Origin: Bilabrum cf. latius
Taxonomy: Eukaryota
NCBI GenBank assembly: GCA_965178125.1
Contig: OZ237743.1
Location: 124,001-188,000 of the forward strand
Direction: 5' to 3'
DNA: 64,000 bases
Part shown: piece after piece, positions 8,454-40,816 of the stretch
Layout: each line of letters starts with the position of its first letter
Position numbering within the stretch: position 1 is the stretch's first letter
Notes under the pieces: generated by a model
Seen by the model: only the letters and a program-made list of their open reading frames with translations
Told to the model about the DNA's origin: nothing
The model's database searches: none
Made by a program: the position numbers and the translations under genes

Positions 8454-9179
8454 TCACTGCCTCCCCCGACTCTAGTCCTCGGCGGGAGCCTCCTCCACGG
8501 CCCTCCGCAGCGCCTCCGTGTCCACCTCCCTGGGCTGGCCGATCCCAAAGGCGGGGGCGCCGCTTTGGCCGACCCCTCCGCCGCTTTGGCCACTGCCACC
8601 GGCAGCGGCGGTGGTCCTCAGCCTCTTGACCCCCCCGTCTGACTCCGCCCCCAGGTACCCCGTGGGGACCCCCCCCTCCGAGCTGAACACCAGGGCGGGC
8701 TTGCCCTGTAGAGAGCGCAGCACTGACTGGCCCGCGATGGCCTCGCGAGATGGCGGGCGAAGGGGCTCTGCGGGCCAGAAGGACCCGTCCAGCTGCAGCC
8801 GCACGTGCTGCTTGCCGTCCATCAGAGCCACGCAACCGTTCGAGAGGCGCAGCTCGGGCCTGTCGTTTCGCACGCCCAGCTCCGCGCAAGGTACGACTCT
8901 GCCAGCCATCTGCCTACCCTTCGGGTGCGCAACAATCACGCGATCCACTACAACGTTATGAAATCTGGCGTAGCGAAACCTCGTGTACGCTGCGAATGCG
9001 ACCGAGGCAGCTGCAACTCCCCCTAGCACGGCGACGGCGCGCTCCAAGAAGACCAATCGTCGCTCCAGTTCATCTGGATGCAGAAATGCTGCCAATCCTT
9101 TCTACCTTCGAGCAGCTGCGGTGCGCTTGGGGTGTAGGCCTTGCGTCCAAAAAGTACAAGCATCGGTGATGAACACCAT
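8454..9179 (-). CDS. Hypothetical single-pass membrane protein
   Basis: ATG 9179 to TGA 8454-8456 with TAGs at 9102 and 8472. Hydrophobic stretch AVAVLGGVAAASVAFAAY. Divergent from the phosphatase gene. Confidence 0.5.
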
Positions 9180-9418
9180 CGCGATTCAAACACGGCTCCA
9201 CGTGGCCGGCTGCCTACAACAATCTCTCACACGCTGCTCGCTATAATGCAGACTATTTGGCTGCCTTGGACTCGCCCGATTCCCCGGACATTGCCGCTGC
9301 AGGTGTCTCAAGAAGGTGCTCCACGCAGACCACCAGCAAGTGGTCTTGCAGTGGGCTGCAACTGAGCTGCGGATGCAGGGTGCGCAATTTGGATCCACTA
9401 TTGAGGCCGTTCGGTACA

Positions 9419-11098
9419 ATGCGCAACCTCCTGATTGCTTTCATTGCGTGTATCACTGCTGCATTTGCCAGACCACGCCACCTGCGGATGAATTTGATCA
9501 GAAAGGAGGGTTCCATGCGGTTTGCCTGGAATCAGCTGCAAACGCCGCAGTATCCTACGCTTGCACTGGGTTCGTCCCCCACAAACATGTCCCAAACAAT
9601 AAAAGCGCAATGTCATACCTTCAGTTAGGGAGATCTCTGCGGTGCACCCGCCACGGACCCGGAAAACTGGGTCAACCCTGGGTTCGTCTGTGTGGCCACA
9701 GCGTCTGGACTGCCTCGCGACGGAAAGCCAATGTACTACTCCGTTGGCGATGGAATACAAGCCGCTAATAAGTCGGATGTGTTTGAGTTCCGTCCGAGTC
9801 CAGTGGATACCACCGGGACAACCGCACGGTTGCTGATAACCGCAGACACTGGGACCACTGGCCACGCCGTTGCGACGCTGTCCAACATGAGCAAAGCCAT
9901 CGAGCGCGCCGAGAACTTGAGTACCAGCCATGGGATCGTTGACACCAGCTCGTTCGACCGTCCCGTGGACCTGGTGCTGTTCAATGGAGACCTTAGCTAC
10001 GCCATGGGCAAAGCTAGCAAATGGGACGAGTTCTTCTCACAGATGCAGGGCATTGCAGCGCGGGTCCCAGTGAGTTTCTCGGTGGGGAACCACGAGTTCG
10101 ACTGGACTGGGCAGGCCTGGGATCCCTGGTGGTCGGACATCTGGTGGGACACTGGCTCCCAGGGCGAGTGCGGCCTGCAGTACGACGCTCGGCTGCAGCA
10201 GGAGGGGCCAGCGCCACCAGGGCCCCGAGGGAACAACTGGACGGCCCCGGGGTACTACTCGAACGTGAACAACTACTGGTACAGCGTCAACCGCGGCCCC
10301 GTGCACGTGATTGCGCTCTCCACGGAGCACAACTACACGACCGGGAGCCCCCAGCGGCAGTGGCTCGAGAAGGACCTTGCAGCAGTGGACAGGACCCCCG
10401 GGCGGGGAGGCACCCCGTTCGTCATCGTGATGTTGCACCGGGCGCTCTACGACACCACGCTCAGCGCGCTTCTTCCCGAAGAGTTTGCTCTCCGGTACGA
10501 GCTGGAGCCCGTCTTTGAGCGGTACAACGTATCGCTGGTGCTGCTCGCGCACATCCACAACTACCAGCGCACATGCGCGGTCTACGACGGCAACTGCACG
10601 GGGTCCGATGGGTGGGCCCCCGGCATGCAGTTCCGGTCCTCGCAGTCCCTCTCGACCCCCGGGGCTGTCCCCAGCATGGGGCTCGGGGAAATCGAGGCCC
10701 GGCGCCTGGCTTTGCAGGGGCTGGAGGAGCGGCGGGCGAGGGCCATCGAGACTGGGCACAGGGGGGTGAGGGCGGTCGACGGGGTGAGCCTTGACCCCAC
10801 CGGGGGGGCGCTGGAGCGGGAGCTCAGGAGAGCCCCGGGGACGAGAGGGGTCTACGGCGGGGATGCGGGGGGTTCCGGGTCCCCCCCACCAAGGGGTCGG
10901 CCCTACGTGGTGATCGGATCAGGGGGCAAGACATCGGGCACCCGGTTCTGGGTGACGGACCCGGAGTGGCTCGCCTTCCGGTCGGAGGAGTTCGGGTACC
11001 TTGACCTCGTGGTGCACAACCAGTCGGTTGCAACCGCTAGGTATGTCTCGGATCCTGACGGGGTGGTGCTGGACGAGTTTTCCTTCGGGCCCTACTGA
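9419..11098 (+). CDS. Secreted purple acid phosphatase / nucleotide pyrophosphatase-like metallophosphoesterase
   Basis: Signal peptide MRNLLIAFIACITAAFA. N-terminal domain TFS[TAG 9626]GDLCGAPA...WVNPG. Metallophosphoesterase motifs ADTG, GDLSYA, GNHE, VMLH and AHIHNYQR. Ends at TGA 11096-11098. Confidence 0.9.
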
Positions 11099-11693
11099 CC
11101 ACTGGCACCGACCGGGGATGTGGAAGGGAGCTTGGGGCGTGTGCATGCGCCGCCAGGGCAAGAATCGGATGGGCTCTGGGAGGACCGAATTATAAGGATG
11201 AGAGTGACTGGTTGAATGAATTTCGGTCGGCGCGGTGGTGCGCCACGGTCCACTGGGGCCGTTGCTTGCTTGCGCTGTCGGCATAAACGAACAAATTCGC
11301 TCTCTGGATTTGTTGAGCAATCAGTGAGATCAAGGAAACGGTACATTCATTCTGCCCACGGCCGGGCAGGCATGTTGTCGTACGGCCGTCACCTGGACGA
11401 AGTGCCGCTACTGCAAGCGTACCTCTCTGGGAAGCGCAGAATCGATGAGGGCAAGCAGCACGACAGATCTCATCACGTTTCTGAAATCCCGGAGCTCACA
11501 AGAGCGCGCGGCGGAGTACGCCTTCACGCAGATGGGGAAGAGCCAGCTTGGTGACCGCGAGCGAGGACACGCCGACGTGGCTGAGGCCCTGCTGCACCTC
11601 CGCGACGACAGCCACAACCGCGCAGCCCAGCACCTTACTACCGCAGGCAAGGTTGATCTAGACAAGGAGCTCGTTCTACTGCTGCTCGAAATG
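11039..11693 (+). repeat. Left copy of a ~660-bp diverged direct repeat (partner at 24985-25647)
   Basis: Colinear near-identity by eye from aggtatgtctcggatcctgacgg to gacaaggagctcgttc...ctcgaaatg. Confidence 0.9.
11372..11693 (+). pseudogene. Decayed 5' fragment of the F-BAR gene (copy of 25300-25647)
   Basis: Relative to the intact copy it has a 30-nt deletion (SIADEAKAVV) and a 1-nt frameshift near 11460, and it is truncated at about 11693. Confidence 0.8.
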
Positions 11694-11736
11694 GCATGCA
11701 TTGACCCACCAAGCCGCCATTCTGCGCGAAATCACA

Positions 11737-14700
11737 TCATGCCTCTTCTCCATTGTCCATGGCCCCCTTGCGATCTACGCTAGCAGTCGCACTGTTTGCC
11801 CCCACGACCACCGGGCCCTGCTTCTACTCCCAGTCAGTCAATGGGGGCAGCTGCACCCCGTGGCCAGTCATAGCTCGCAATCCCTTCGACCCTGCCATTG
11901 CCCTGTCCACAGGATGCTTTTTAGCAGTGCCTCTTCTTGGGATCTCCTGCTCACGCCGGTCCGTATCACCTCCGAATACAACTGAACCAGCCAGGGAGCA
12001 CGCCTCCCGCACCTTGCCGGTGATCTCCCATCGCAGCACCCACACGCACCAGAGAAGTACCCCCACGTTCGACAGGAACACCACCATTGTGGCTGTTGTC
12101 AGCACGGCATCGCTCGAGTTCTCGTCGTGCAGGAAGAGACCCGCCTCAAATGTCAAGAATGCTCCCACCAGCGCCACCAGCTCGAGCGTGTTGAGCGCCG
12201 TGGCTTCGTACGGCTGATTCAGCGAGTGCAGCACAGCAGCGGCGAAAATCACGGCGATGGCGGAGTACGTCTGCACGCGCACGCCCATGGGCTCCACCAG
12301 CACCGTGATGGCCACCACGGCCAGCTTCCTCAGCATAATCACCACTTCCCAGTAGTACGCGTGGTCCCTAAAGCCGGCCGTCAGGAAGCCCATAGTGGCG
12401 ATCACGCCAGGGGCATGCAGTCGGTCACTCACCCACCAGAGTCGCAGTCCAGCCAAGAGCGGGATCCCCACGGCAAACACCAGGATGGCTGGAACGCCCA
12501 CACCGTACATGATCTGCAGCGCTCTGGGGTTGTGGCAGCACACGTCAAGGTCCAGGACCAGCCGCCGGTCTTCGAACCCTTCGGGGCATTCGTCATGCCC
12601 CGCCGGACTCGTGGCTAGCGGACCCATCTGCTGGTCACCACCGTCTAAGTCTACATCTGGCTCTAGGCTGGTGCATGACAGCATCCCGAACGATGCCTCG
12701 GTCAGCGTCAGATGCACCAGGAATGCGATCACAGTCAGACCCGAGAGGATCCGCATCCCCAGCGGGAGCTTCACAGCGGCTAGCGGCACTCCCACGCAGC
12801 CCAGTACAGTTCCTTCGCGCCGACTAGAAGCGAGCCAGAAGTACTCAGCCACTGGAGGCAAGGCAGCAGCAGGCACGGGACCCATAGTCACTGAATCAGC
12901 ATGTGACTAGGGCACAGCGGCACCGCCCTTCAAGCTTGTCGATACTGCCGTGTCTTGACCGAAGGATCTGGTGGGGACTGGAGCACCGCTGGACCCAGAC
13001 AGCAAGGACCTGAATCGGCTAGTGCGCTGCCGCATGATGCCCGACCGGCGAGCAGCGCTCCCCTTGCCTTGGCTGCTACTGGTCGTGATTGGGCTGCGTG
13101 GGCCAGGGTCGGAGCCGTGCCCACCATGCCGAGGTGCAGACGCGCTTCTACTCGGGCTCGATTCACGGTGCTTCTCGTTTCCGCTTGGCACGCCGCGCTC
13201 CTCGAGCACCGTCTCATTGCCCTGCCGCACCCTAGCGAGCGGATTGAAAGTCATCCTTTTCCTGGCAATCTAATCGTTGACCGGCTTCCCTTGTCTGTGC
13301 CCACCCTGACTCGCAGATTGAATCCCAGTAGCACCTGGACTCTCAGCTCCCCCTTCCTCCTCTCCTTCTTCCTCGTCTTTATCACCGTCAGTGACAACCT
13401 CCTCGGGCTCGTGCAAGCACCCGTCGATCAGATCCACAACCACCCAGAACAGGGCCAGTCCAGCAGCAAGCAAGAACGGAGTCAGCAGCACCACAATGGT
13501 GCGAAGGAGATACGAAGATCCGTGCGGCATGTTGGCTGCAAGGCCGCCCTGCATCTGCTACAGATTCACCCCCAGCACGTTCTCTTCGTGCATGGCAAGC
13601 GCCTCGGCAAGCACCCGCTCGTCCTCCAGCTGGGTCCCAGGCCACGTATCGTGCGGTGCACCCGACGTGCCACTGACACCGGACGCTCTACTGCTATTGT
13701 GTTGTTGCAGAATGCCTGTCCAAGCCTCCAGCGCAGCTGCCTGTCTGTTCTCTTCTGCACTTTCTTGCAAATCTCCAGTGCCCTGCTGCAGCATGCAGTC
13801 CAGGCTCAGCACTTCTGAGCTGACTGATGACACGGAGCCCATGGTGTTGAACAGGCGGATAACACCATCTGGCCAGTTGAGTTTGAAGGACGCAGCGATT
13901 GCCACCACCTACACATGCGAGAAGAGGATCTTGATGGTGGCCATACCCACGTTCTGGCCCCCGGCCCGCTGCCCGTGCCCTCGCTGCCTTGGCTGTGCCA
14001 CGTCAGCAGCACCCGGCGCGCGTCCAGTTGCAGTGCCGGGGGCCATGTTGGCTGTTCTGGCGCTGGTACTAGTGCCAAAGTCTGCCCCGGCTCTTCCAGC
14101 AGCATGTGTGGCCGTAGTTGTCGATGCATGCTAGTCTCTGTCCTCGTTTTCGTCCGAGGAGCTGTCATCTCCTAGCAATTCCATCAGCCGTTGGTGTTCC
14201 GACTGCACCGGCTGCCTGTTTGCGGGGCCCATGGAAGATGCACCACCTTGCAGCACGAGTGCTAGCGGATTTGTGCTTCTCAATGTCTATTCCACTGCAG
14301 GCTGCTTGGGATACGCCTTCCCTACCGGTTTCAAACCCGACTAGGCCGCGCGCTAGTTTAGAGCAGGCGCGCTAGCAGCCTCACTTGTGGTCAGTTGCAC
14401 TGTAGTAGCCCCCTGCTTTCCTGCAGCAATCTTTTCCCTACCATCACGGGCGTAATCACCGCCTTGCTTAGCCTCCATCGCTGCCAGCGCGCCCTTCCGC
14501 AGCGCATTCAGTACAAGTCCGATGGCCAGCAGCAGCACGGCCATAGACACTAGAATCGCCACAAGCACAACCACGAAGCCGCTCTGGCACTTGCGGCACT
14601 CGGATGGACCCCATGTTGTGTACCCTGGCATGCATCTGGCACACAGCAGCCCCCCGTACCCCTCGGCGCAAGTTTCACCAATCCACAAGGGGGCACCGGC

Positions 14701-17700
14701 ATCAATCAGCGAGGAGACATCCGCAGTGACCTGCACCGTTGTCAGATTTTCCATTGAATCCGACACGTACCTCGCCCGCACCAGCGAGGCTGACTCCACG
14801 ACCTGCTCTCGCTGGTACAAAGTGGAGATGGTGGGAACTTGCTGCTGCTACTGCTGCAGCTGCCTCTCGAGGGACCTGCGCACGTGCGGTGGAGCACGCG
14901 CAACTAGCCTTCTGGTCTGCGTCTGATTGATGCTGAGGGACGTTAATTCTGGCGGGGCACCATCGACCAGCGAGAGACATGATTCTGGCCGTGGGCACCG
15001 AGTGAAGGCAACCCTTCCTGAGGCCCACGGAATCCGCTAGTATCCTGGGGCTGCAGCAAGCGTAAAGGAGGACCCGCCCCTGCATCGAGTGGCCAGCTGG
15101 TCGCATGATCTGCAGCCCCAGTCCTCAGGCTGCAGGTGCGTGGTCAGAAACTCGCTCTAGGCGCAAGTCGAGGGTGATCCGGGGGTCCACGAGGAGAAAG
15201 GGCCCGGGCCCGCCTCGCTGATGGACCGGATCCGGAGGGCCATGGGGCGGGGGTCGATGGCAGTGAAGGAAGTCCGCATGAGTGCCAATCCGCCCGCGGA
15301 GCTTGGCCTCACGTCTATATCAGAAAGGTCAATTCGGAAGGCAGCGGCTTCGTCTTCTTCTTGGTCTTGATCTGCCCCGACTGAGGCAGCACCGGAAGCT
15401 GGTTCTCGTTCTCTCGTCAAGTTTGCCCCGCTCACGCCAAGCAGCCTCGATTGGATCTCAAACCCGTCCAGTCCCGCCAGTCCCTCCGCCACGATCTGCA
15501 CCTGCCCCGGGTCACGGAAGGTCCAGCGCACCTCGAACCGTTCGTTCCTCTCCCTCCAACCCTGAATGGAACTTGCAACGTATGGCCATGGATCTCCGAT
15601 GACGCCGTACGTGAATAGCGGGGCCGTTGCCGGATCGCTGGATAGGCCCCCACTCTAGTGCACCACTACCTGCAACCCGTCGATCTGGTCCTCCTCCAGC
15701 TGAGGCACCACGCACTCGATCGAGGTCTCGCCCAGTACAACCACGTCCAGGCACTCGTGCGGTCCCAGCATCACGCGATCTGCATCATTATTTTGCCGGC
15801 CCAGGCTGCGCCCTGCAATCACGAGACGCTCCCCGGCTGTGGCGCCGCTTGGGGCCACCGACGTCACTATTGGCCGCCCCAGTGCGGTGAAGAAGCGGTT
15901 GCGAGGACTCGTCTGCTGGGCCACCTGCACCTCAACCTCAGATTCACCCGGCCAGCTAGTCCCATTCACGCCAGTGCACAAGATCTCCGTGCTGGATACA
16001 AGGCGCACCGCACTGCAGGGACTGCCCCCGACTGACACACGCTCCACGTCTGACTGCTCGAATCCGAAGTGCACTCCTCTTACCGTGAACTGAGCTAGCA
16101 CCTGTGGCCCCGTCAGGCTGTACGATGGCTGGATCTCCTCCACCAGCGGCCGCTCGTAGCTCACGGTCGCTTGCGTAGACAGCTATACGGAGCCACCGGC
16201 CACTTGCGACTCGTCGTTACCACCGCCTTGCTGCACTTCTTCCGCAGAGCTCCCGCCCAGCGTGTGCACCGATACCAGCACATCCACGCCCACGCCGGGC
16301 TCGCAGTACGCCAGCAGCTCAGTGTCCGACACCCACAGCACCACGCGAGAGGGCCCACCGCCCACTTCCACACGATCCACAGCCCAAGGAGCCACACCCA
16401 GGCCCTCACCTCTGATCTGCAGCAGCCCAGCGGAGGAGGGCGCTCCCACCAGCGTTGGCGCAATGCTTGATACGGCCACCGCATCCAGGACCACCGAGGT
16501 TCGACCGCTGGGCGCCACTTCTCCGCCCAGCCCTGCTGCCTCCAGCAGCAGCTGCAGCTCATGTTGCGCTGTAGTCACCGACCCAAGAGCCACCTGAGCC
16601 CGACGCGCCGCTCCTGCGAGCACAGCGTCAGCACTGCCGTTGGAGGGGAACAGCCGCGGGCTCAGCACCTGCACAGCCGGGCGCCCCACCAGCAGCACCG
16701 TCCCGCCCGGACTAGACTGGGCCTGCAATAGGATCGATTCTTGCACCCCATCCAACTGGCCCGATGCATCTTGTGTCCCCACACTGAAGTGAACGGACAC
16801 CAGCTGCAGTGCATCAGAGAGCTATTGGCCAGACGCGGCCGAAGCAGCTGCCTGCCAGTCTACCACTGTGCACTGCACCCTGGAGATCACACGGACCGCC
16901 TGTGCGGATGCCGAGCTGGCGCGTACTGCGTGCAGTGACACGTTGGTACACGACGTATTCCACCCCTGGCCATCCAGCCGCACCAAGCCTGCGCCTCCCG
17001 TTGTCACACGGTCCCACTGAGACAGGGCCGATCCTGCATGACTCACGTCCAGCAGGAGCCGCAGACCCGCTTCTAGCAGATAGGCAGTGGCGCGGGGATA
17101 CGTGCTGATGCTGCCACTGTCTACACTGCTTCCGTTGGCCCTAGTGACAGCCAACGAGCCCGTCCTTCCTGGGTTTGGGCCTCCTGAGAATGTGGCCCGC
17201 GTGATCACTGGAGCCGCATAGTCCACAGTGGGTGCAGTGTCGATTGCATTCTCCCCGTTGCGCACAGATAAAACCTGCACCCTATGCCCAATACCCACAC
17301 CTGGAGGCAGCAAACACCGGAGTCGAGTGGCCGGCTCCAGCATCACCAGCTCAGTGCAAGCGTAAGTCCCAACCTGCACCCGGGCGATGGTGTCCACGGT
17401 GTTGCCGAGCCCATTGCCCTCGATCACGATCCACCCGCCATCGCCGGACACGCGGCCAGCAGGCACGCCATCGACAGCATCAGGTGTGACTGACTGCACC
17501 TGTACAGGGGGCTGGAACTGGAAGCCCGTAGGAGCAACGGATTCACGACCCGTAAAAATCACTCGCACGCTGAAATCCCCGGGGGTCCATTCCGGCCGAA
17601 TCTAGGTGCATTCCATTGTGCTGTCGTTGTGCACAAGCACATCGGGGCATTCTTTCCCCGAGATCACCATCCGTGGCGAGGTGCCGTTGCCGCCCGTCCG

Positions 17701-20700
17701 AGCAGACCCAAAATGACGGCCTTGCACGGTCACGCGATACACAGATTCTTTGTCGTTGAAGATCGTGTCTGGGTCCACCAGTACCGCATCGATCTCAGGG
17801 GCTAAAAAACGCACCACACCTGCGCTGCTAGCGTAGCTTCGGCCCTGTCGAGAGCGCACAGTCACTATGCCATCCGAGCCTGGACTAGGCATTAGTGTGC
17901 AACTTATCACGAAGTCAGACTCGGCCGATACGTTAACACATGGTGCCCCATCCACGTCGATGCTTTCAATGAACCCGCCGTCCACGGCCCCCAGCTGGAT
18001 GCCGACCAGCTGCAGCTCCGTGCCCCCTGCAGGACTCACGATGGACGGATTGGAACCGAGCACGGTTGGATCCACCCTGGCGAAGAGCTGGCTTGAAGAC
18101 CACTCGGCCAGCTGTGGCGGCGGGTCCACGTTGCTGCTCCACACCCCTGTCTCAAAACTTTCCCTCGGGTCAGCTGATAGCTGTCGCCATTCCTGCGCAT
18201 GCAGTCTGGCCCGCTCCGACCTGTTCGACTCCAGCGCGGCATTGAGCGCGCCTATCGGTCGAGGTACCACCCGCAATTCGTTGGAAGCCACGAGATGCGC
18301 CCGCACCGAGCATCGGAGCTCCGTGGCGGACACAATGACCAGCGGGTCGCATCTTTCCCCGCCTAGAAAGATCGCCCCGACATTGATCTCCATGCGGGAT
18401 GTGACGAGTGCAGTCCCTCTGAGGATAACCGAGTGCCTGGTGGAGTTATTTACGTTGTTCTCCACCATCGAAGACACGTCAATGGTGGGAGGCTCCACGG
18501 CCTGCACTGCGGCGGGGGCCAAGTCGACCCACGCTGGTATCGCGTCAACCGAGGACACATTCCCTCTTGCCGGTGCATCGTCGTCTGACACGCTGCTCTC
18601 CTATTCCCTGTCCGCCACGACCACCACAGCGGCCGTGTCCAGCCATGATAGCCCGGGCAGCTACACAGACATCGATACCGGGCCACCGATCGCGCCTGCA
18701 GGCGCAGTGCACAACAGCTCCGCTGCCCCCGGTGCGCGTTCCAGAATGCCGTCGCAGGGGTACACTCCAAGAGTCCCGCGCAAGGACTGCCTCGAAAGAG
18801 TCAGGGCAGATGACTCGAGCGAGGACCATACTTGAGACAGACCCCCGGTGGAATCCCGACTACCCATCGAGAGCACTGCAGCTCCCTGCACCCAGCCCAG
18901 CCCCAGCGATCCCCACCCGTCACCTCGTGGTACAGCTCCGATCACGCCGCCCTCACCAACGCTGGCAGGCCAATTGCTGCCGCTGCTGATCAAGCCAATC
19001 GCACCCTGCATGCCCACCGCAATACAATGCACCTCATCTGGTCCGGGAGCTGCGTCGTCGATGGTTTGCCCGCTGGCTAGTTCACGCAGCAGTAGCTCGC
19101 ACGCCCTTGGGTCGTTGCTAGACACGACTACCTCGCCAACGCTGCCCCCGTCAGAACCGGGCAAATGCACCTGCACCTCGGCCACGCCCGGTAGCAAGGG
19201 CTGCTCGGGGGTGCACTGCAGGATGGTGCGCATGCCTTCGTCAATGGCAAATGCACTGGACACTGGACACCGGACTCCACCTGCCCACACATGCCCAAGC
19301 TCATGCACCCTGCCGAGCTCCGATGGACGGGGCAGGTGCATTGAACGATGGGCCATCACAGCAATACCATCCCGGATTCTGCCCGTGTACACAGCCTGAC
19401 AATCACCCACAGGTCCCACATATTCCACCACGCCAGTTGCAGTATTGCCCTCGCTACCGCGCAGCTCCCCTTCGGACAGCAGACAACCAGCCTATGCCAC
19501 ATGCCTCAGCAGTGCCTAGCCATTCCACCCAGCCGCTGCATCTTTGGCAGATGCCGCATCTACTGCTGCCCCCAGTGCCACTACGTTTGCTTCTGTGAGA
19601 GGTGCAGCCCCCATTCCATCACTCGCTAGGCTCTCGTTCAGTGCACTGCACATCGCCTGCTGTTCGCTGCAGTCCAGCGAGGCTTGCAGCGCCTGCGCCA
19701 CGGGCAGCATCCACGGAGGCCTCGAATGCAGTCTGGTGGTGTTGGCCTTGTATGCTACTAGCCCACGCCCACTGCATCCTGGCGATGCTGCCAGCAGGTG
19801 GACCTCTTGGTCGCTGATGGATGCATTGGGCTGAGCAAATGTAGCGAGTGCAGTGCCGAGCTAGCAGCCGGGTCCAACGCCGGCGGGAACAGGAGCCTCG
19901 ATTCGCTCCGAGCTCAACACAACCGCTGCATCGGATGATGAGTTCTGGGTTGGGCCCAACCGGCTCCTCTGATCCACCCGCAGCAGCACTACTGCACCAG
20001 CAGCGTCGTCAAAGCCAGGTGCGCCCACAAACACGTCCATCGTACGGTCCAGTCCAAAACCCAGGAGCTCAATCGAGGCCCCAAAGCGGGAGCGCTCGAA
20101 CTGCCCCGGCCAGTGCCCATCCAGTCGTAAGGGCATCCGGGCAGGGGATAGGAGCTGGTGGTCAGAGACAGACATGGTTAGAGATCCAGCCGGGTCCTGT
20201 TGCACGGCCAGGTGTAGCAGCACCACGGCTCCGAATCTCCTGTCCTATCCAGACAGCGACAGATCCACCCAGTCAGGCGCGCCTACCAGTATCGACACCT
20301 CGCCAGTGGCCTGGCCAGGCCCCCATGCTGTCTCTTGCCTCTCCTCCCGAATCGGGCCCAGGTACTCGAGCGAGGCCCCAAAGCTGTCGCGGGGTGCTCC
20401 TGTGACGGACTGTATCACAGCGATGCGGGTGCCGTTCCAGTCTCCCCTTGGACTCTTGCTTGTCGTAGATGGGCTGCCTGTTGGGTGCAGTGCATGCACA
20501 TGCAGCTCTCCCTGCTGCGGTGCCCCAGCCGCTACAACTGGTGCGTGCATTCTCCTATGGCCAAGCATCGACTGGCCCAAGAAACCCACCGATGCACCCA
20601 GCGAGGTAGGCCCGCTGGCTACCGTCACATTGGAGAGCAGAGCCGTTGGTAGTACAACTCCACTGGCACTGAGAGCTGTCCCTGTCGCCAATCGACTGGC

Positions 20701-23700
20701 ACTGAGAGCTGTCCCTGTCGCCAATCGACTCACCCACAGCTGTCCTCTGGATGCGTCCCCCACCAGCAGGGAAATCGACCCGTCCCCCGCGCCCAGAGGC
20801 CCCAGCGAACACGCCGCGCTGCCATCTAGGAGCACCCTCATGCCAGCAGGCGGATGGTCTACGGCAGGTGCACCATGATCGTTTACTGTCGCAATCCTGG
20901 CATGCAGCAGGCCCCTGCTGACCCAGTTGTGGTAGCCCATCTCAGGCCCCGTGCTTGCCTGTCTGTCAACCTCTAGGGGTTCACCCTCCAACGCAACGAA
21001 CCTTCGTTGGCTAGCCCCCAGGATGCCTATCGACACATCAAGTGAGACAGGGGATGGTGATAATGATCTTGTAGCAGAGCCGGGCAACGAAGTGAGGCGG
21101 TGTATGGCTGTGGATTCAGCAAGCTCTGCCTCAGGGCCTAGAGCCAGCACCCACACCGTGCCTCGACCGCTGCCACCGTCATCATCACCGCGCGCCCCAA
21201 CGACAATGTCAACCACACCGTCACCATCCAGATCCGATAGCGATGCCACCGATACGCCAAATTCGTCCACATCGTCCAGCTGTCCCGTGAAGCCCCCTTG
21301 CGTGTCGGAGATCTTCTGATGCCCCTTTACCGTGCCATCCGATCGCAGGAACAGCACCCACACCGCGCCTCGATTGCTGCCACCATCATCGTCAAAACGT
21401 GCCCCAACAACAAGTTCCACCACGCCATCACCATCCAGATCCGACAGAGATGCAAGCGATTGCCCAAACTAGTCCCCATTGTCCAGCTGTCCCGTGAAGC
21501 CCCCTTGCGTGTCGGAGATCTTCTGATGCCCCTTCACCGTGCCATCCGATCGCAGGAACAGCACCCACACCGCGCCTCGATTGCTGCCGCCACCACCGAC
21601 ACCGAACTCAACTTCTCCCACGGCCAGGTCCACCGTGCCATCACCATCCAGATCCGACAGAGACGCTAGTGACTTGCTGAACCAGTCCCGGTCGTCCAGC
21701 TGTCCCGTGAAGCCCCCTTGCGTGTCGGAGATCTTCTGATGCCCCTTCACCGTGCCATCCGATCGCAGGAACAGCACCCACACCGCGCCTCGATTGCTGC
21801 CGCCGCCGTCATCGTCGCCAAATACTCCCACGGCCAGGTCAATCACACCATCACCGTCCAGATCCGACAGAGATGCCACCGATGTGCCAAAATAGTCCTG
21901 GTCGTCCAGCTGTCCCGTGAAGCCCCCTTGCGTGTCGGAGATCTTCTGATGCCCCTTCACCGTGCCATCCGATCGCAGGAACAGCACCCATACCGCGCCT
22001 CGATTGCTGCCGCCGCCGTCATCGTCATAGAATGCTCCCACGGCCAGGTCCACCGTGCCATCACCATCCAGATCCGACAGAGATGCCACAGATACACCAA
22101 AATTGTCCCGGTCGTCCAGCTGTCCCGTGAAGCCCCCTTGCGTGTCGGAGATCTTCTGATGCCCCTTCACCGTGCCATCCGATCGCAGGAACAACACCCA
22201 CACCGCGCCTCGATCATGGCCGCCGTCATCGTCTGTTGCTGCTCCAACGGCCAGATCAACCACGCCATCACCGTCCAGATCTGACAGAGAAGCCACCGAT
22301 ACACCAAACAAGTCCCCACTGAACAATTGTCCCGTGAAGCCCCCTTGCGTGTCGGAGATCTTCTGATGCCCCTTCAGCGTGCCGTTGCTCTTCACATTAT
22401 TGTTTGCCTGAAGGAGCACGTGGGGTCCTGTGCCCCTTCGCACCTGCACGCTGCTTCCGCTGTCGGACCCCAGCTGCAGCTTCCCATCCCCGTCAATCTT
22501 GCATTCCACCTTGCCGCCAGGTAAACCCACCACTCGATCGCAAGCACCACCCAGGGCTGTAGCTCCAGCTGCGCAGCCATCGGGGACGAGACATGGCACC
22601 TGCCCGAACTCAAACTCCGTGCCATCGTCCCACGCCCTCGTCAGTGACACGTTCACGAACCCCTGGGGCGATACGGACCATCCCCGGATGGAGTCCTCCT
22701 GCAGGCGCACCTCGATTGAGTTGGTTCCACTCGCCACCATGGCGCACCTCGACTGCAGCATAGGGCCTCCACAAGACGTCGTGGGGAAGGGGGGATCAGC
22801 CAGCAGATGGGGGCCCCTGCCAGGGCACCCATGCACGTTCGCATTGCGGGGCCAGAACCGCAGCAACAGGTCCACATTTAGAGTCCCGCCGAGTCCCTCG
22901 GCATACATGTCCGCCCACGCGACTCGCTTCACGGGAAATACGGCCCGATAGGAGTCCAGCAGCTGGCCACCTGCTACCAGCATGAAATGGAACTCCTCCG
23001 CCTCAGTGCCTGTCATGGATGAGTTGTAAGCCAGCTGCACCCGCACGCTGCCTTGCAAATACCCGAGCTACAGACGAGCGCTGGAGGAGGCACACTGTGA
23101 CTGGGTGAGGACAACACGCCTTCCACTGGAATGTGCTTGCCCGGATGCATTAGAGTACAACTATCCGTTGACTTGGTGCGCCTCGATGCCAACGCTCCAT
23201 GGATTGACGAGGCGGGCGGGGTCGATAGTGTAGCTGCCCTCGGCTCCGAGTATCGGAACAATGCTACGCGGGGTGCTGCGCAGCTACAGCACCCACACCG
23301 CACCTCGGTCAGTGCCGCCGTCATCGTCACCAACTACTCCAACGGCCATGTCCACCATGCCATCACCATCCAGGTCCGACAGCGATGCCACCGATACACC
23401 AAAATAGTCCCGATCGTCCAGCTGTCCCGTGAAGCCCCCTTGCGTGTCGGAAATCTTCTGATGCCCCTTCACCGTGCCATCCGATCGCAGGAACAGCACC
23501 CACACCGCGCCTCGCCTGCTGCCGCCATCACCATCATAGAATGCTCCGACGGCCAGGTCCACCATGCCATCACCATCCAGATCCGACAGAGATGCCACCG
23601 ATACACCAAAATAGTTCGCATTGTCCAGCTGTCCCGTGAAGCCCCCTTGCGTGTCGGAGATCTTCTGATGCCCCTTCACCGTGCCATCCGATCGCAGGAA

Positions 23701-24711
23701 CAGCACCCACACCGCGCCTCGATACTCGCCACCGTCATCGTCATAGAATGCTCCGACGGCCAGATCAACCACGCCATCACCATCCAGATCCGACAGAGAT
23801 GCCACCGATACGCCAAAGCGGTCCCAATCGCCCAGCTGTCCCGTGAAGCCCCCTTGCGTGTCGGAGATCTTCTGATGCCCTTTCACCGTGCCATCCGATC
23901 GCAGGAACAGCACCCACACCGCGCCTCGATTGCTGCCACCATCATCGTCACTCAAAGCTCCAACGGCCAGGTCCACCGTGCCATCACCGTCCAGATCCGA
24001 CAGAGATGCCACTGATTGCCCAAACTAGTCCCCATTGTCCAGCTGTCCCGTGAAGCCCCCTTGCGTGTCGGAGATCTTCTGATGCCCCTTCACCGTGCCA
24101 TCCGATCGCAGGAACAGCACCCACACCGCGCCTCGATACTCCCCACCGTCATCGTCATTCAAAGCTCCAACGGCCATGTCCACCATGCCATCACCATCCA
24201 GATCCGACAGAGAAGCCACCGATACGCCAAAATTGTCCCGGTCGTCCAGCTGTCCCGTGAAGCCCCCTTGCGTGTCGGAGATCTTCTGATGCCCCTTCAC
24301 CGTGCCATCCGATCGCAGGAACAGCACCCACACCGCGCCTCGATTCTCCCCACCGTCATCGTCTGTTGCTGCTCCGACGGCAAGGTCGGTCATGCTGTCC
24401 CCGTCAACGTGTAGCAGTGTGGCAACAGACCCACCAAAGCTATTTCCATTCGCAAGCGTACCATCGAAGCTTCCGTGTATGCTGGATATCTTCGTCTGGT
24501 TCCAAACTTTGCCATCACCTGAAGCAGGGGAAGATTGCAACGCCCTTGAGGCAGAGCTTCCATGTAGGGTTTCAGGCTTCGTTCTGCGGTGCGATGCCAC
24601 AAATGAATTTGCTCTCATATCCGCGCATATGCAAGTGGGGACAAACGACGTGACACGTGCAGATACAGTCATGCTTTGCTTACTGACGGGGCCACTCTTG
24701 CATTTCAGCAT
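11737..24711 (-). CDS. Giant (~4,324 aa) cell-surface protein: two FG-GAP (integrin-alpha-like beta-propeller) arrays, several IPT/TIG Ig-like domains, a Cys-rich segment and a C-terminal multi-pass TM domain
   Basis: Seventeen minus-strand ORFs of the track (24025-24711 down to 11824-12891) share one frame. I traced the gaps and found about 27 TAGs and no TAA/TGA until TGA 11737-11739. Motifs: DLDGDG..DLAVGA repeats; IPT-like PVITSVAP / GRNFG / IECVVP patterns; CAEGYGGLLCARC; KILFSHV[TAG]VV..NWP; YYWEVVIMLRKL. The start codon is uncertain. Confidence 0.85.
20662..20727. repeat. Perfect 33-bp tandem duplication (in frame, SRLATGTALSA x2)
   Basis: actggcactgagagctgtccctgtcgccaatcg occurs twice head-to-tail. 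Confidence 0.9.
21130..22385 (-). repeat. FG-GAP tandem array 2: six units of ~207-210 bp
   Basis: Unit KISDTQGGFTGQL-x5-FGxSVASLSDLDGDGxVDxAVG-x3-DDDGG-x2/3-RGAVWVLFLRSDGTVKGHQ is repeated six times. Confidence 0.9.
23284..24490 (-). repeat. FG-GAP tandem array 1: six units of ~207 bp (first unit divergent)
   Basis: Same unit as array 2, with a nearly identical scaffold nucleotide sequence. Confidence 0.9.
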
Positions 24712-24984
24712 TCACCTCCGGAATGAATCTACTGATCTATAACAAACGGATACAACTGATTAGTCCGAACAATTTCATTAACATGCCTTTCATGAAAGCG
24801 AGCCAAAACGTTCTGCGCTAAATTTGGGCCTTCTCTTGCCCCACCAGATCCAGTCAACGTCGCCGTGCTAGACTACCAATTCCGGAATTTGCAAACTAAA
24901 CGCTACTTGTTATGCTAGAGGGTCTTGAAGTCCAGACCAAGTCTAAACCTTCACACAACTTTCAAGAAGAAATTGGAAAACTGC

Positions 24985-25647
24985 AGGTACGTCTCGGATC
25001 CTGACGGCCCGGGTGTGGTGCTACTGTCCACGGCACCGACCTGGGATGTGGAGGGGAGCTTGGGGCATGTGCATGCGCCGCCAGGGCAAGACTGGGGTGG
25101 GCTCTGGTGCGCAAATTACAAGGATGAGAGAGAGTGACCGGTTGAATGAATTTCGGTCGGCGCGGTGGTGCGCCACGGTCCACTGGGGCCGTTGCTTGCT
25201 TGCGCTGTCGGCATTTACGAACGTTCGCTAATTGGGTTCGTTGAGCAATCGGCGAAACCAAGGAAACTGTACATTCATTCTGCCCACGGCCGGGCAGGCA
25301 TGTTGTCGTACGGCAGCATTGCCGACGAAGCCAAGGCGGTTGTTCGTCCGTTGGATGAAGTGCCGCTGCTGCAAGCGTACCTCTCTGGGAAGCGCAGAGT
25401 CGATGAGGGCAAGCAGAGTGTGGAAGATCTCATCGCGTTTCTGAAATCCCGGAGCTCGCAAGAGCGCGCGGCGGAGTACGCCTTCACACAGATGGGGAAG
25501 AGCTAGCTCGGTGACCGCGAGCGAGGGCACGCCGACGTGGCTGAGGCCCTGCTGCACCTCCGCGACGACAGCCACAACCGCGCAGCGCAGCACCTCACCA
25601 TCGCGGATGAGATAGACAAGGAGCTCGTTCCTCCGCTGCTCGAAATG
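24985..25647 (+). repeat. Right copy of the ~660-bp direct repeat (decayed phosphatase 3' end, intergenic DNA, intact F-BAR gene start)
   Basis: Aligns to 11039-11693. Encodes a remnant RYVSDPDG matching the phosphatase C-terminus. Confidence 0.9.
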
Positions 25648-28600
25648 AAGGCCGACCTTGCTGCCATGCAGGGAGAGCTGTACAAATCCGACCGTTTGGA
25701 GCGCAGCCTCCGAAGCGCCGGCGACCGCTGCCGGCGCGCCTACACCTCGCTTCTCTCTGCCCACGGCACCCTCGTGCGATCCGCGAAAGCCGCTGGGAAA
25801 CCGGCACGGGCCTTGTGGAAGGCTCCTGTGGACCGCATATGGTCCATGCAAGAGTTGCGAGAGCGAAGGGAAGCGGCCCGCAAGGCCAGGCCCAAGCCGT
25901 CGGAGGCCCCTCGGCAAGCAGCAAGCTCCGGGAAGGTGACAGCGCCAGCTGGGAGAGGGACAGGAAAGCCGCCCCCTGGTCGCAGCGAGCCTCCTGCGGA
26001 CGCGACGATCGCCACGCCCAAGGCCGAGCAGCCTCCTGCAACCCCTGGCAGCGAAGGGGGCGACGGGGGCGCGACCCCTGGCCAGGGAGGGGGTGACAGC
26101 ACCCCCCCGGGCGGTGGCTCGGTGCAGCGGGCCAGGGTCAGCTCGACTGGGAGCGACGGTTCCGGTTTAGGATCGGCCCCCAGCGGGTCCAACCGTGCGG
26201 GTCGCGCGTCCAGCTCTGCCTCCTCCTCTCAGCCGCAGCCGCGGCAGGGGCAGGGGCAGGGGCAGGGGCAGGGGCAGGGGCAGGGGCAGGGGCAGGGGCA
26301 GGGGCAGGGGCAGGGGCAGGGGCAGGGGCAGGGGCAGAGGCGCGTGTCCAGGGCGGGGAGCGGGGCGGGAGCGCAGCAGCAGGGCGCCTCAAGGCAGCGG
26401 GGGGTTTCTGGCCAGAGGCAGCGAGGAGGTGTGCAACCGGGCGGCACTGGCGCTGGCACCGCCCGCTCTGGGATGATGGGCCGTCTGCAGAGCCTCTTCT
26501 CCGCCCCCGTTGACCCCGAGGAGGCCAAGCAGAAGGACTACGCCTATGCCGTGGAGCAGGACCTCAAAGCCAGGAGGGAGTGTTCCGGGGCGTGGAGGGG
26601 GTACAGGGACGCGAAGACCGAGTACCTGGAAGGCGTGGAGGCGGCCTGCGGCAGGATGGACGAGATCGAGTCCAGAAGGAGGGCGCTGCTGGCGGTGACC
26701 GTCAGGCACCTGCTGCTGCACCAGAGCAGCATGCTTGCCAACCTGCAGTTCGACACCCAGCAGGCCGCTAATGTGGCGGGGGACGCCGAAGAGGCCGCGA
26801 GGGAGCCCCTGCCCCCGCTTGTTCCCCGGCCCTCCCCTCAGGGGCAGACTGGGGGGGAGGTATCTGCGGCGGTGCTCAAGATGAGGAGCCGCAGCAGGAC
26901 GGGGTCCCAGGCGCTGGGTCTGGGCAAAGAGGGGGCGCGGGGGGGCAGCGGTGCGGCAGGGGGTGGTTCCGCAGGCGCCGCGCGCGTCAAGCCGGTGTCC
27001 CGTCAGCAGATGGGCGCCGGCCTGCGGCCCGGGGTCGTGCAGTACGCCGTGCATCTCGCCTTTGCTGCCCGCGGGCTTACTCTGGGCAAGACGCTCTCGG
27101 GGACAGTAGCAGGTGCAGGGGCAGGGGGGTCATCTTCGCCCCTGGCTGCCGCCTACATGGCTCTGCCTGCTTCGGTGAGGAAGGACGTGCAGCTGAGGGA
27201 GCTGGTGTGGACGGATGCGTCGAGTGACGACGAGGACGAGGAGGGGCAGGGATCGGGAGCAGAGCGCAAGGCCGGGGCAGGGGGCAACTCCTCGATGGAC
27301 CTGGAGCGGCTCATGTGGATGGACGGCGCCGTGCTGGCTGGCGCTGGCAGCAGCAGGCATGGGTCCGGCGGCAGGGGCTCGGAGGGGGGGGCAGGGGGGG
27401 GGGGATGCCTCGCCGGGCACGCCCAGCGGCTCACAGGCCGGGGTGAGGAGAATCGGGGGCGCGTTTGACGGCAGCTGCGTGTTGGTGAGCGAGAAAGCGG
27501 CCATGACTGCGCCCGGCAAAGCAGCATCGGCCGATGGCGGCCCGCAACCCGTGCTGGCCACCGTGCGTGAGATGCTCCGCGCCGCCGTTCCCGCCGCCAA
27601 GCAGGCCCTGGACAAGGCACAGGAAGGAGGAAGCGGGGCACCCGCTGCCGGTGCAGGCAAGGCATCGTCGCCAACGTCCAAGCCGCAGCAGCCCAAGGCG
27701 CCAGATGCAGTGCGCCAGCTGGTCGCGGCGCTTGACGCCCGCAGGTCTAGGGGGGTGCGCTGCGGGTCCGAGGATCTCGTCGTGGTGGCCGGGCTGGTGC
27801 GACTTGCATTGGATGCAGTGCTGGCGGGCGAGCTGCACCAGCTGGGACGGTCGTTGATGGTCCTCGGACAGACCGCACACTGCATCGAGCGGCAGTCGGG
27901 AAGCAATGGGGAGATGGAGGGGGATGGGCCTGCGGCGCGGGCGGCAGCAGAGGAGCAGGCCAAGCGGGCCGATGACGAAGCAGTAGCTGAGGATTCGCGA
28001 TAGGACGGCAAAGCCGCGTCTGGCGCCGGTGCATCGGGTCAATCCGGCGAGAAGGACTCGGACGGCGGCAGCGGCGCGGTGGTGCGGCGTGCGAGCAGCG
28101 GAGGGGGGGCCGGCAACCGGGTGTACCTGCGCGATCTGGTCCTCTCTCACCCGCTGTGGCAGTCTGCGACCTTCTGGGAGGCGTGCGTGTTCGAGACACT
28201 GGGCGCGGAGATGTCCAAAGTGGCGCCTGTGGGCGGGGCAGGGGGGTCGGGTGCCCCCGGTGGGGGGCTGGGGGGCACCCCCTCGGAGCCCGAGGCGCAG
28301 GGTAGGGAGGAGAGAAGGAGGTCCGAGGCGGCGGTGGGGTTTGGACAGCTGCACTTCTGGGCGTTCGCGATGAGTCAGTACGGGGTGCGCCGGTCGGACA
28401 TCGTGCGGATGCTGCACAAGTACCGCGTGTTTATGGGGATCGAGGACGCGCAGTGGGAGGCGCTGCTGGGGGCGGCGGGGGTGCAGGAGGGAGGAGGGAA
28501 ATCTGGCGAGATGGGAGATGCAAAAGGGGCTGAGAAAGGCTCTGAAGAGGCTCCCGGAGAGGAGGCCCCGGCGGCTGTTCACGCGACCGACGCCGAGCCA

Positions 28601-40466: not shown

Positions 40467-40816
40467 TCTGCTAAATAGGCGTGCTGGCTGGGCTGTGTGC
40501 TATATAGACCTTGTTACTAGCAGGCCCTGGAGCCGGTGGTGAGTAGCGAACACTTTGGCTGAATGCCGAACCGGTAGCACTAGGACGAGATGCGCCCGGA
40601 GTGACGCACTCCTTAAATTGTATAGAAAGAGGTGTGGTAGCAAAGCGTGAGGGTTTGCGATTTGTTTTGTTTCAGAATGAAGCGCCCCGGATGAAAGATG
40701 CCGCGTTCCAGTTCCAAGGTTCCGGTCGGCGGCGTTGCGTGCATTTGGACATGCCTGCTTGGATCCACCCCGTTCTAGCTTTTACGTGTCTCGCAGAGAA
40801 CCTCTCGCGAGTAAAC

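What the first reader, a model, noticed from the sequence alone, without database searches (positions are those of the whole stretch)
11039..25647. 13-kb gene inserted between ~660-bp direct repeats that show reciprocal decay
Seen: 11039-11693 and 24985-25647 are copies of the same junction (phosphatase 3' end, spacer, F-BAR 5' end). The left copy keeps the working phosphatase end and has a broken F-BAR start. The right copy has a broken phosphatase end and the working F-BAR start. The giant FG-GAP gene fills almost all of the space between them. Inference: the phosphatase and F-BAR genes were once adjacent, and the receptor gene arrived as a cassette with an unusually long target duplication (Campbell-like integration of a circle, or break repair). 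No transposase or integrase is encoded inside.
Basis: partly seen in the sequence, partly recalled or inferred. Interest (0 to 1): 0.7.

Follow-up and report, generated by a model that had tools for sequence, protein, structure and literature searches.

The report
Giant gene inserted between duplicated gene junction
A 13-kb stretch carrying one huge surface-receptor-like gene sits between two decayed copies of the ~655-bp boundary of its two neighbour genes, so it was very probably dropped between two once-adjacent genes by DNA break repair, an instructive but fairly ordinary kind of genome rearrangement.

Summary
11039-11693 and 24985-25647 are direct copies: 92% identical at aligned bases, 84% counting gaps. 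They are the only such pair in the window. Each copy holds the last ~20 codons of a purple acid phosphatase, a ~270-bp spacer and the first 116 codons of a weakly BAR/F-BAR-like gene. The left copy keeps the phosphatase end and has a frameshifted F fragment. The right copy keeps the F start and has a gutted phosphatase tail.

The 13,291 bp between them are 97.6% one minus-strand gene of 4,324 codons (FG-GAP x12, TIG). It is intact only because this genome reads TAG as a sense codon: 27 in-frame TAG, no TAA or TGA. The gene shares the host's code and the composition of other giant genes here, so it came from within the genome.

No transposase, integrase, terminal repeat or poly(A) tail was found. 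Best reading (about 0.5): one-step insertion at a staggered break or by template switching, which duplicated the junction. Rivals are an older duplication of the gene pair followed by replacement, Campbell-type integration, and mis-assembly. No empty site or donor copy could be retrieved, so the mechanism stays inferred.

The parts
9419..11098 (+). Purple acid phosphatase gene (559 codons, signal-peptide-like start, one in-frame TAG at codon 70, stop TGA)
   Evidence: translation. Metallophos 1.2e-11, Metallophos_C 7.7e-12 (both above their cut-offs), Pur_ac_phosph_N 5.8e-6 (below its cut-off).
11039..11693 (+). Left junction copy (J_L): working phosphatase tail 11039-11098, spacer 11099-11371, broken F 5' fragment 11372-11693
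   Evidence: alignment. (30-nt deletion, net -2 frameshift, open to a stop after 60 codons from the ATG at 11372).
11694..11736 (.). 43-bp left flank of the inserted segment, just downstream of the giant gene's stop; no poly(A) run, no terminal repeat
   Evidence: sequence read directly. (no inverted repeats).
11737..24711 (-). Giant gene: 4,324 codons plus TGA; 27 in-frame TAG; FG-GAP repeats in two arrays, TIG domains, C-terminal multi-pass membrane module
   Evidence: FG-GAP 4.2e-60 (12 stretches), TIG 5.6e-28 (3 stretches), weak TRP 0.0022; 6 homologues of the C-terminal module at 53-77% identity.
21145..24438 (-). Two arrays of about 6 FG-GAP units of 207-213 nt (21145-22383 and 23279-24438), 79-93% alike
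24712..24984 (.). 273-bp right flank of the inserted segment (upstream of the giant gene); GC 0.43 against 0.58-0.62 in the other non-coding pieces measured
24985..25647 (+). Right junction copy (J_R): gutted phosphatase tail 24985-25027, spacer 25028-25299, working F 5' part 25300-25647
25300..27468 (+). F gene, 722 codons, TAG at codon 69, stop TGA; long helices, weak BAR/FCH signal, (QG)n low-complexity insert
   Evidence: BAR_4 8.6e-4, FCH 0.051, both below cut-off; look-alike clusters with FCH at scores 0.78-0.82, leads only; helices 30-67, 73-164, 169-196, 406-501 at low confidence.

Best explanation
The phosphatase gene and the F gene were once neighbours, separated by a spacer of about 270 bp. 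A 13.3-kb piece of the same genome was then inserted into that junction. The piece carries a complete giant FG-GAP/TIG membrane-protein gene with 273 bp of its AT-richer upstream DNA and 43 bp downstream.

I infer that the chromosome was opened by two nicks about 655 bp apart on opposite strands, or that a replication fork left the template at the end of this stretch and re-entered at its start. Filling in the two overhangs, or copying the stretch twice, and joining the ends to the incoming DNA left one copy of the 655-bp stretch on each side.

Because the stretch spans the phosphatase's last 20 codons, the spacer and F's first 116 codons, both neighbours stayed whole:
- The left copy serves the phosphatase (coding end and 3' flank).
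- The right copy serves F (promoter side and start).
- The two superfluous halves decayed.

What is shown: the anatomy, the reciprocal damage, the lack of mobile-element features, and the native code and composition of the insert. What is inferred: the single step, the staggered break or template switch, and a donor paralogue elsewhere in the genome.
For: - Both copies hold the same contiguous tail-spacer-start unit with sharp inner ends.
- Only two copies lie in 64 kb. Summed contig depth over the repeat bins in run X1 (12.3, 16.7, 7.6, 11.5) is like the neighbouring bins (6.3-19.1), against 50-72 over FG-GAP repeat bins. This is a rough guide only.
- The insert is 97.6% one intact gene and brings its own upstream DNA of different composition (GC 0.43).
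- It uses the host's TAG-sense code at 6.2 TAG per 1000 codons. Its GC3 of 0.66 is like the other giant genes in the window (0.64-0.69), against 0.78 and 0.80 for its two neighbours. So it is native DNA that moved, not foreign DNA.
- Contigs 90-95% alike overlap parts of the gene's 3' region in runs X1 and X5 (table 3). This points to paralogues in those samples.
- No transposase or integrase family, no inverted termini, no poly(A).
- Changes cluster at the two insert-proximal ends. In the left F fragment there are 8 substitutions in 48 nt plus a 6-nt indel next to the insert, against 15 in 265 nt elsewhere (Fisher p = 0.014). The right phosphatase tail has 25 gap columns in 60 nt. This is what error-prone repair synthesis at a junction would leave.
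- Precedent: staggered breaks are held to give duplications of 46 bp to about 1.9 kb at Drosophila rearrangement breakpoints, which later decay by substitutions and small deletions (PMC1885836, passages read).
- Runs X1 and X5 (two studies) cover 30 of 30 bins. No indel and no joint across the insert is listed. No loose end at either junction appears among the 24 loose ends shown, with 52 not shown.
Against: - No empty site, donor copy or outgroup was seen, so neither direction nor step number is observed.
- No listed contig was shown to bridge 11693/11694 or 24984/24985, because table 8 is cut.
- Differences in the F part are 14 synonymous and 9 not, at codon positions 5/5/13.
  - If only the right copy were under selection, about 46% should be synonymous.
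  - The excess is not significant over all 116 codons (p = 0.11).
  - It is marked in codons 1-100: 12 of 15, p = 0.008, on a split chosen after seeing the data.
  - This hints that the left fragment was under coding constraint for part of its history, which a one-step event does not predict.
- A 655-bp overhang needs unwinding. The cited paper itself raises the length of DNA to be unwound as a difficulty for its isochromatid model.
Confidence: 0.5

Rival explanations
1. Multi-step origin. The phosphatase-F pair, or a larger block, was first duplicated in tandem, and both F copies stayed functional for a long time. Later one event replaced the 3' part of the left F and the 5' part of the right phosphatase with the giant-gene segment. 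Alternatively, deletions trimmed them down to the giant gene's flanks.
For: - Synonymous excess between the copies: 12 of 15 differences in F codons 1-100 and 14 of 23 overall. The chance of this is P = 0.0015 if both copies drifted freely, and p = 0.008 and 0.11 against 'left free, right selected'.
- After its frameshift the left fragment stays open and protein-like for 75 more codons.
- The frameshift and indels could be recent.
Against: - It needs at least two events whose ends happen to leave both copies covering exactly the same 655 bp.
- No further trace of F or the phosphatase lies next to the insert.
- The synonymous excess rests on 23 sites and a split chosen after seeing the data. 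It could also come from faster change at GC-rich third positions in the working copy: the left copy has A/T where the right has G/C at 6 sites, against 2 the other way (read).
Confidence: 0.27
2. Campbell-type integration. A circular DNA carrying the giant gene plus a copy of the junction recombined with the chromosomal junction by homologous recombination, leaving direct repeats. The repeats could still let the gene loop out as a circle.
For: - Direct repeats of several hundred bp flanking a single gene are the expected footprint.
- No site-specific recombinase is needed if host recombination does the job.
Against: - The circle must already have joined the giant gene to this very junction, which only moves the question to an earlier event.
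- No integrase family was found.
- No joint skipping the insert appears in contigs of 4 runs. Contigs drop rare forms, so this is weak.
Confidence: 0.07
3. Assembly artefact. Two diverged haplotype copies of the phosphatase-F junction were placed on either side of a wrongly joined contig that carries the giant gene.
For: - No read or contig was shown to bridge either junction (table cut).
- The best holder (X1) may be the sample that the window was assembled from.
- A mostly synonymous difference pattern is what two working alleles would show.
Against: - Alleles of a working junction should both keep a working phosphatase end and F start. Here one copy has a frameshifted F start and the other a phosphatase tail with a 20-nt deletion and a lost stop.
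- 8% divergence with 81 gap columns is far above usual haplotype differences.
- Runs X1 and X5 cover all 30 bins with no indels, and no loose end is listed at the junctions.
- X1's contig ends at 11239, 30 bases past the last left-specific base (11209). That is where the 75 nt shared by both copies begin to be ambiguous, so both versions are present in the reads. This is my inference and assumes 31-mers, which is recalled.
Confidence: 0.08

Closest known systems
Breakpoint duplications from staggered breaks (Drosophila inversions; PMC1885836, abstract and passages read)
   Same: - Non-repetitive sequence at the break, often parts of genes, ends up on both sides of the rearranged segment.
- Sizes run from 46 bp to about 1.9 kb (median 321 bp), and 655 bp fits.
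- The copies then diverge by substitutions and small deletions.
- No mobile element is involved.
   Different: - There the duplicates are inverted and flank an inversion. Here they are direct and flank an inserted segment.
- There the ancestral single-copy state is seen in a sister species. Here it is only inferred.
Target-site duplications of transposons and LINEs, including the longest reported (126 bp for rotifer R9, and longer putative ones for Dualen in Chlamydomonas; PMC9977147, one passage read)
   Same: Direct duplication of the target flanks newly inserted DNA and is caused by staggered cleavage and fill-in.
   Different: - No element-encoded enzyme, no termini, no poly(A).
- The cargo is a single host gene.
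- 655 bp is longer than the 126 bp quoted for R9.
- No second copy of the 'element' was seen.
Campbell-type integration or re-integration of circular DNA (textbook knowledge, recalled)
   Same: One gene-sized segment lies between direct repeats and could in principle loop out again.
   Different: - It requires the circle to share the 655-bp junction beforehand.
- No recombinase gene and no attachment-site-like core were seen.
Replication template switching (fork stalling and template switching, or microhomology-mediated break-induced replication; recalled, no paper read here)
   Same: It can insert a copy of a distant segment and duplicate the sequence at the insertion point in one event, with clustered errors near the joints.
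   Different: It is described mainly from human copy-number variants. The microhomology at the joints cannot be judged here without the donor sequence.

Membership tests
Mobile element insertion with target-site duplication | Element-encoded transposase, integrase or reverse transcriptase | tested here: not met
   Pfam on the giant protein and on 5 antisense ORFs of the insert gave no such family. There was only a sub-threshold Flexi_CP hit in one antisense ORF.
Mobile element insertion with target-site duplication | Recognisable termini (inverted or long terminal repeats, poly(A) tail) | tested here: not met
   0 inverted repeat pairs in 9000-28000. The ends were read directly and show no poly(A) and no shared termini.
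Mobile element insertion with target-site duplication | Multiple copies of the element in the genome | not testable with these tools
   No genome is held. Paralogous contigs 90-95% alike exist in runs X1 and X5, but their flanks are not visible.
Staggered-break breakpoint duplication | Unique (non-repetitive) sequence duplicated exactly at both edges of the rearranged segment | tested here: met
Staggered-break breakpoint duplication | Single-copy ancestral state in an outgroup or other strain | not testable with these tools
   Metagenome scans were blank. No joint across the insert appears in 4 runs.
Campbell-type integration | Donor circle sharing the repeat, or a recombinase with a core site | tested here: inconclusive
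   No recombinase family was found. A donor could not be searched for.
Purple acid phosphatase (left neighbour) | Metallophos core plus Metallophos_C above Pfam cut-offs | tested here: met
   45.9 bits against a cut-off of 21.5, and 46.1 against 23.
F-BAR protein (right neighbour) | FCH / F-BAR domain above the Pfam cut-off, or a confident BAR fold | tested here: not met
   - FCH 14.3 bits against 27.8; BAR_4 19.6 against 27.
- Atlas look-alikes score 0.84 or less.
- The structure model has mean pLDDT 42.8.
- It may work like a BAR protein (long paired helices), but membership is not established.
FG-GAP / TIG surface protein (the insert's gene) | FG-GAP repeats and TIG domains above cut-offs | tested here: met
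   FG-GAP 199.3 bits with 12 stretches; TIG 97.2 bits with 3 stretches.
Nuclear code with TAG alone reassigned | In-frame TAG in many genes, while TAA and TGA occur only at ORF ends | tested here: met
   87 TAG, 0 TAA and 0 TGA inside 15,835 codons of 10 genes. 8 genes end in TGA and 2 in TAA.
Nuclear code with TAG alone reassigned | Which amino acid TAG stands for | tested here: inconclusive
   - TAG (codon 69 of F) aligns with CAG in the left copy.
- One TAG sits in the run QLQQ-TAG-QQQ.
- The TAG columns in DUF3638 homologues are not conserved: 134-141 aligned rows at each of 3 of the 4 TAG columns, only 1 row at the fourth.
- Glutamine is the likeliest reading but is not shown.

The most novel reading that the evidence does not exclude
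The giant receptor-like genes of this organism spread through the genome by a transposase-free route that regularly duplicates several hundred bases of the target. Each new copy would then arrive without breaking its neighbours and sit between direct repeats that can later loop it out or amplify it. On this reading the left F fragment, still open and protein-like after its frameshift (ORF from the ATG at 11445 to 11783), is a kept by-product and not debris.
Probability: 0.08. Interest if true: 0.7.

Novelty: new member of a known kind. Interest (0 to 1): 0.4.

Why it matters
- **A clean natural example.** It shows how a whole gene can be put between two tightly packed genes without harming either. 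The duplicated junction gives one neighbour its 3' end and the other its promoter side and start.
- **Possible excision.** The flanking repeats could permit later loss or circular excision of a large surface-protein gene.
- **An internal clock and control.** The 8% divergence can be compared with the gene's nearest paralogue. One TAG in the working copy stands opposite CAG in the dead copy, which bears on what TAG means in this genome.
- **A practical warning.** Under the standard code the giant gene looks like a wreck with 27 stops, and the F gene appears to start 115 codons too late.

Tried and rejected
- **Whole-genome search.** No genome is held for this window.
- **Earlier findings.** None by place or by sequence.
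- **Empty site or relatives in JGI metagenomes.**
  - A phosphatase protein scan gave 22 pattern matches, none confirmed.
  - An exact 38-nt core of the repeat gave 0 matches.
- **Sequencing runs.**
  - 16 runs were listed and 4 laid.
  - No joint across the insert is listed.
  - No RNA holder is listed.
  - Runs X6 and X7 (RNA is only a guess) have no cover over 11296-11869 or over most of the giant gene. That says nothing either way.
  - Table 8 was cut, so bridging of the junctions could not be read.
- **Homologues of the F N-terminus (residues 1-220).** None among 7,014 candidates of 397-1264 residues. Shorter and longer proteins were not searched.
- **Protein atlas.** The standard-code ORF gave only leads below 0.9.
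- **Structure of F.** A single-sequence model had mean pLDDT 42.8, too poor for a fold search, so none was run.
- **What TAG stands for.**
  - The SecA alignment to solved structures did not cover the TAG position.
  - The G C-terminal homologues align an S in an unconserved stretch.
  - The DUF3638 columns are variable.
- **Retroposition of the giant gene.** Rejected: no poly(A), and 273 bp of upstream DNA came along.
- **Foreign origin of the insert.** Rejected: it uses the TAG-sense code.
- **Rfam.** No match in the window.
- **An upstream exon with a signal peptide for the giant gene.** Considered but not resolved.
Full report

Yes. The repeat finder on 9000-28000 returns six collinear blocks of one direct pair, 43-180 nt long and 86-97% identical. 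They run from 11104/25032 to 11693/25647, 13,928-13,960 bases apart.

- blastn joins 11092-11693 to 25021-25647: 84.3% over 638 columns, 53 mismatches, 7 gap openings, E = 0. It adds a 23-nt match at 11039-11061 / 24985-25007.
- A global alignment gives 571 matches, 49 mismatches (92.1%) and 81 gap columns. Identity is almost the same in the three parts: phosphatase tail 36/3, spacer 244/23, F part 291/23.
- Of the 20 self-matches of at least 150 nt in the window, 19 are tandem FG-GAP units inside the giant gene and one is this pair. A whole-window repeat scan finds two copies only.
- Beyond the inner ends (11693 and 24985) the alignment falls to noise.

**2. What the pieces are.**

The window is GC-rich (0.57-0.73) and comes from a eukaryote-like genome in which TAG is a codon.

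- Between 24711 and 11740 the minus-strand frame has 27 in-frame stop triplets. All are TAG. The other two frames have 143 and 151 stops, mostly TGA.
- Across ten genes of the window (15,835 codons) there are 87 in-frame TAG, no TAA and no TGA. Eight genes end in TGA and two in TAA.
- With CAA at 141 against CAG at 504, some 24 in-frame TAA would be expected if TAA shared TAG's meaning. So TAG alone is reassigned (my arithmetic).

Read this way, the four features are as follows.

- **9419-11098 (+)** is a purple acid phosphatase. Metallophos and Metallophos_C score above their cut-offs.
- **11737-24711 (-)** is one gene of 4,324 codons. It has 12 FG-GAP stretches (4.2e-60), TIG domains (5.6e-28) and a C-terminal membrane module. 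That module has six unnamed homologues at 53-77% identity in public data.
- **25300-27468 (+)** is a 722-codon helical protein with only sub-threshold BAR_4 and FCH matches. Language-model look-alikes that include FCH clusters score 0.84 or less. The single-sequence model is poor, with mean pLDDT 42.8. 'F-BAR' is therefore a lead, not a finding.
- **The insert (11694-24984)** is 13,291 bp, of which 12,975 are the giant gene. There are 43 bp beyond its stop and 273 bp upstream of its start. The upstream piece has GC 0.43, against 0.58-0.62 for the repeat spacers and another intergenic stretch.

**3. Reciprocal damage.**

- The left copy keeps the phosphatase's last 20 codons and its TGA. Its F part lacks 30 nt (codons 7-16), has a net -2 shift at 11459-11464 and 6 extra nt at 11645. 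From its ATG at 11372 it runs into a stop after 60 codons.
- The right copy keeps F's ATG and first 116 codons. Its phosphatase tail has a 4-nt insertion, a 20-nt deletion and TGA changed to TGT.

Both superfluous pieces were truncated from the start, so their damage is expected. Its value is that it argues against two alleles of one working junction.

**4. How it probably arose.**

Both copies carry the tail, spacer and start contiguously, so the two genes were once adjacent and the giant gene is the newcomer.

It is native DNA:
- It carries the TAG code at 6.2 TAG per 1000 codons.
- Its GC3 is 0.66, like the other giant genes here (0.64-0.69). Its two neighbours have 0.78 and 0.80.
- Contigs 90-95% alike overlap parts of its 3' region in two runs, which suggests paralogues.

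Nothing marks a mobile element:
- No transposase or integrase family in the protein or in five antisense ORFs.
- No inverted termini.
- No poly(A).

The simplest mechanism is a single repair event. Either a break with ends staggered by about 655 bp was filled in and joined to the incoming segment, or a replication template switch left and re-entered the template 655 bp apart.

- Staggered breaks have been proposed for Drosophila inversions. There, 17 of 29 inversions carry duplications of 46 bp to about 1.9 kb of non-repetitive sequence at the breakpoints, which later decay by substitutions and small deletions (PMC1885836, abstract and passages).
- Element-made target duplications are much shorter. 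126 bp was called exceptionally long, and longer putative ones are reported for one LINE clade (PMC9977147, one passage).
- In keeping with error-prone synthesis at the joints, changes are concentrated at the two insert-proximal ends. The left F fragment has 8 substitutions in 48 nt plus an indel next to the insert, against 15 in 265 nt elsewhere (Fisher p = 0.014). The right phosphatase tail is riddled with indels.

**5. What does not fit neatly.**

Of the 23 substitutions in the F part, 14 are synonymous, counting TAG/CAG as synonymous. They fall at codon positions 5/5/13.

- If both copies drifted freely, 14 or more synonymous changes have P = 0.0015.
- The fairer null is that the left copy is free and the right is selected. 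That predicts about 46% synonymous and gives p = 0.11 for all 116 codons.
- For codons 1-100 (12 of 15 synonymous) the same null gives p = 0.008. This split was chosen after seeing the data.
- Six of the nine non-synonymous changes lie in codons 101-112, next to the insert.

Possible readings:
- The left fragment was part of a working F paralogue for some time (the multi-step rival).
- It is still used. An ORF from the ATG at 11445 stays in the F frame after the shift and runs to 11783.
- Third positions of the working copy change faster than neutral. The left copy has A/T where the right has G/C at 6 sites, against 2 the other way.

I cannot decide between these without an outgroup.

**6. Artefact?**

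- Runs X1 and X5 (two studies; X1 may be the source sample) cover 30 of 30 bins of 9000-26200. No indel is listed. No joint skips the insert. No loose end at either junction appears among the 24 shown, with 52 not shown.
- The summed depth over the repeat bins is like that of the neighbours, so the unit is not high-copy there (a rough guide only).
- X1's contig ends at 11239, 30 nt after the last left-specific base. That is where 75 nt shared by both copies begin, as expected if both versions are in the reads. This is my inference, and the word length of 31 is recalled.
- The table of pieces was cut, so I did not see a contig bridge either junction.
- Together with the reciprocal damage, I put mis-assembly at about 0.08.

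**7. Tests that failed to deliver.**

- No genome is held.
- Two metagenome scans were blank.
- No homologue of the F N-terminus was found at similar length.
- No earlier notes exist.

So the empty site, the donor locus and the question of whether paralogues have similar flanks remain open.

**8. Verdict.**

This is a real, well-preserved footprint of a gene-sized insertion with a 655-bp junction duplication. It is best filed with breakpoint duplications made by staggered breaks or template switching, not with mobile elements or Campbell integration. It is a new example of a known kind of event and of moderate interest. The TAG-only code of the genome, seen in passing, may be the more notable feature. 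Codes in which UAG and UAA differ in meaning are in print for a few lineages (PMC5304391, listing and start of abstract only). I did not try to name the organism.

Noticed in passing
whole window; e.g. 11737-24711 (-), 53454-63998 (-), 47568-52313 (+): TAG is a sense codon and TAA/TGA are not. There are 87 in-frame TAG, 0 TAA and 0 TGA in 15,835 codons of 10 genes; 8 genes end in TGA and 2 in TAA. TAG makes up 0-22% of CAG+CAA+TAG per gene and is commonest in the giant genes.
   Followed up: partly
25504-25506 versus 11544-11546: The single TAG of the working F start stands opposite CAG (Gln) in the decayed left copy. In the giant gene, one TAG sits in the run QLQQ-TAG-QQQ. Both hint at TAG = Gln. 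TAG columns in conserved-domain homologues were variable and did not settle it.
   Followed up: partly
11372-11783 (+): The left F fragment differs from the working copy mostly at synonymous sites (12 of 15 in codons 1-100). After its frameshift it remains open from an ATG at 11445 to 11783, running antisense into the giant gene's 3' end. It may be a retained small ORF or simply young debris.
   Followed up: partly
40475-47602 (+) and 47568-52313 (+): Two long frames overlap by 35 nt. The first is an ankyrin-repeat protein of 2,375 codons. The second joins ankyrin repeats to a SecA-like motor (SecA_DEAD 6e-43; 8e-58 to bacterial SecA structures). This may be one gene with a frame change or intron. 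An ankyrin-SecA fusion in a eukaryote-like genome is unusual.
   Followed up: no
24712-24984 and 24520-24711 (-): The giant protein's predicted N-terminus has no evident signal peptide. The 273-bp upstream flank holds a short frame with a hydrophobic stretch (MLMKLFGLISCIRLL). There may be an unrecognised first exon.
   Followed up: no
38700-40466 (+): The leishmanolysin-like (Peptidase_M8) frame matches only profile positions 255-476 of 529. The N-terminal half of the domain may lie in an upstream exon, so the genome is probably not wholly intron-free. This gene ends in TAA.
   Followed up: no
26226-26371 (+): A (GCAGGG)n microsatellite inside the F gene encodes a (QG)n run within a low-complexity insert of about 200 residues that splits the helical parts.
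   Followed up: no
21543-21629 (-): ARAGORN calls an 87-nt tRNA-Thr(GGT) inside an FG-GAP repeat unit of the giant gene. It is almost certainly a false call, and Rfam found nothing in the window.
   Followed up: partly
53454-63998 (-): A giant gene of more than 3,514 codons, running off the window, with DUF3638/DUF3645 and 35 in-frame TAG. It belongs to a large family: 1,957 representatives at E <= 0.001.
   Followed up: partly
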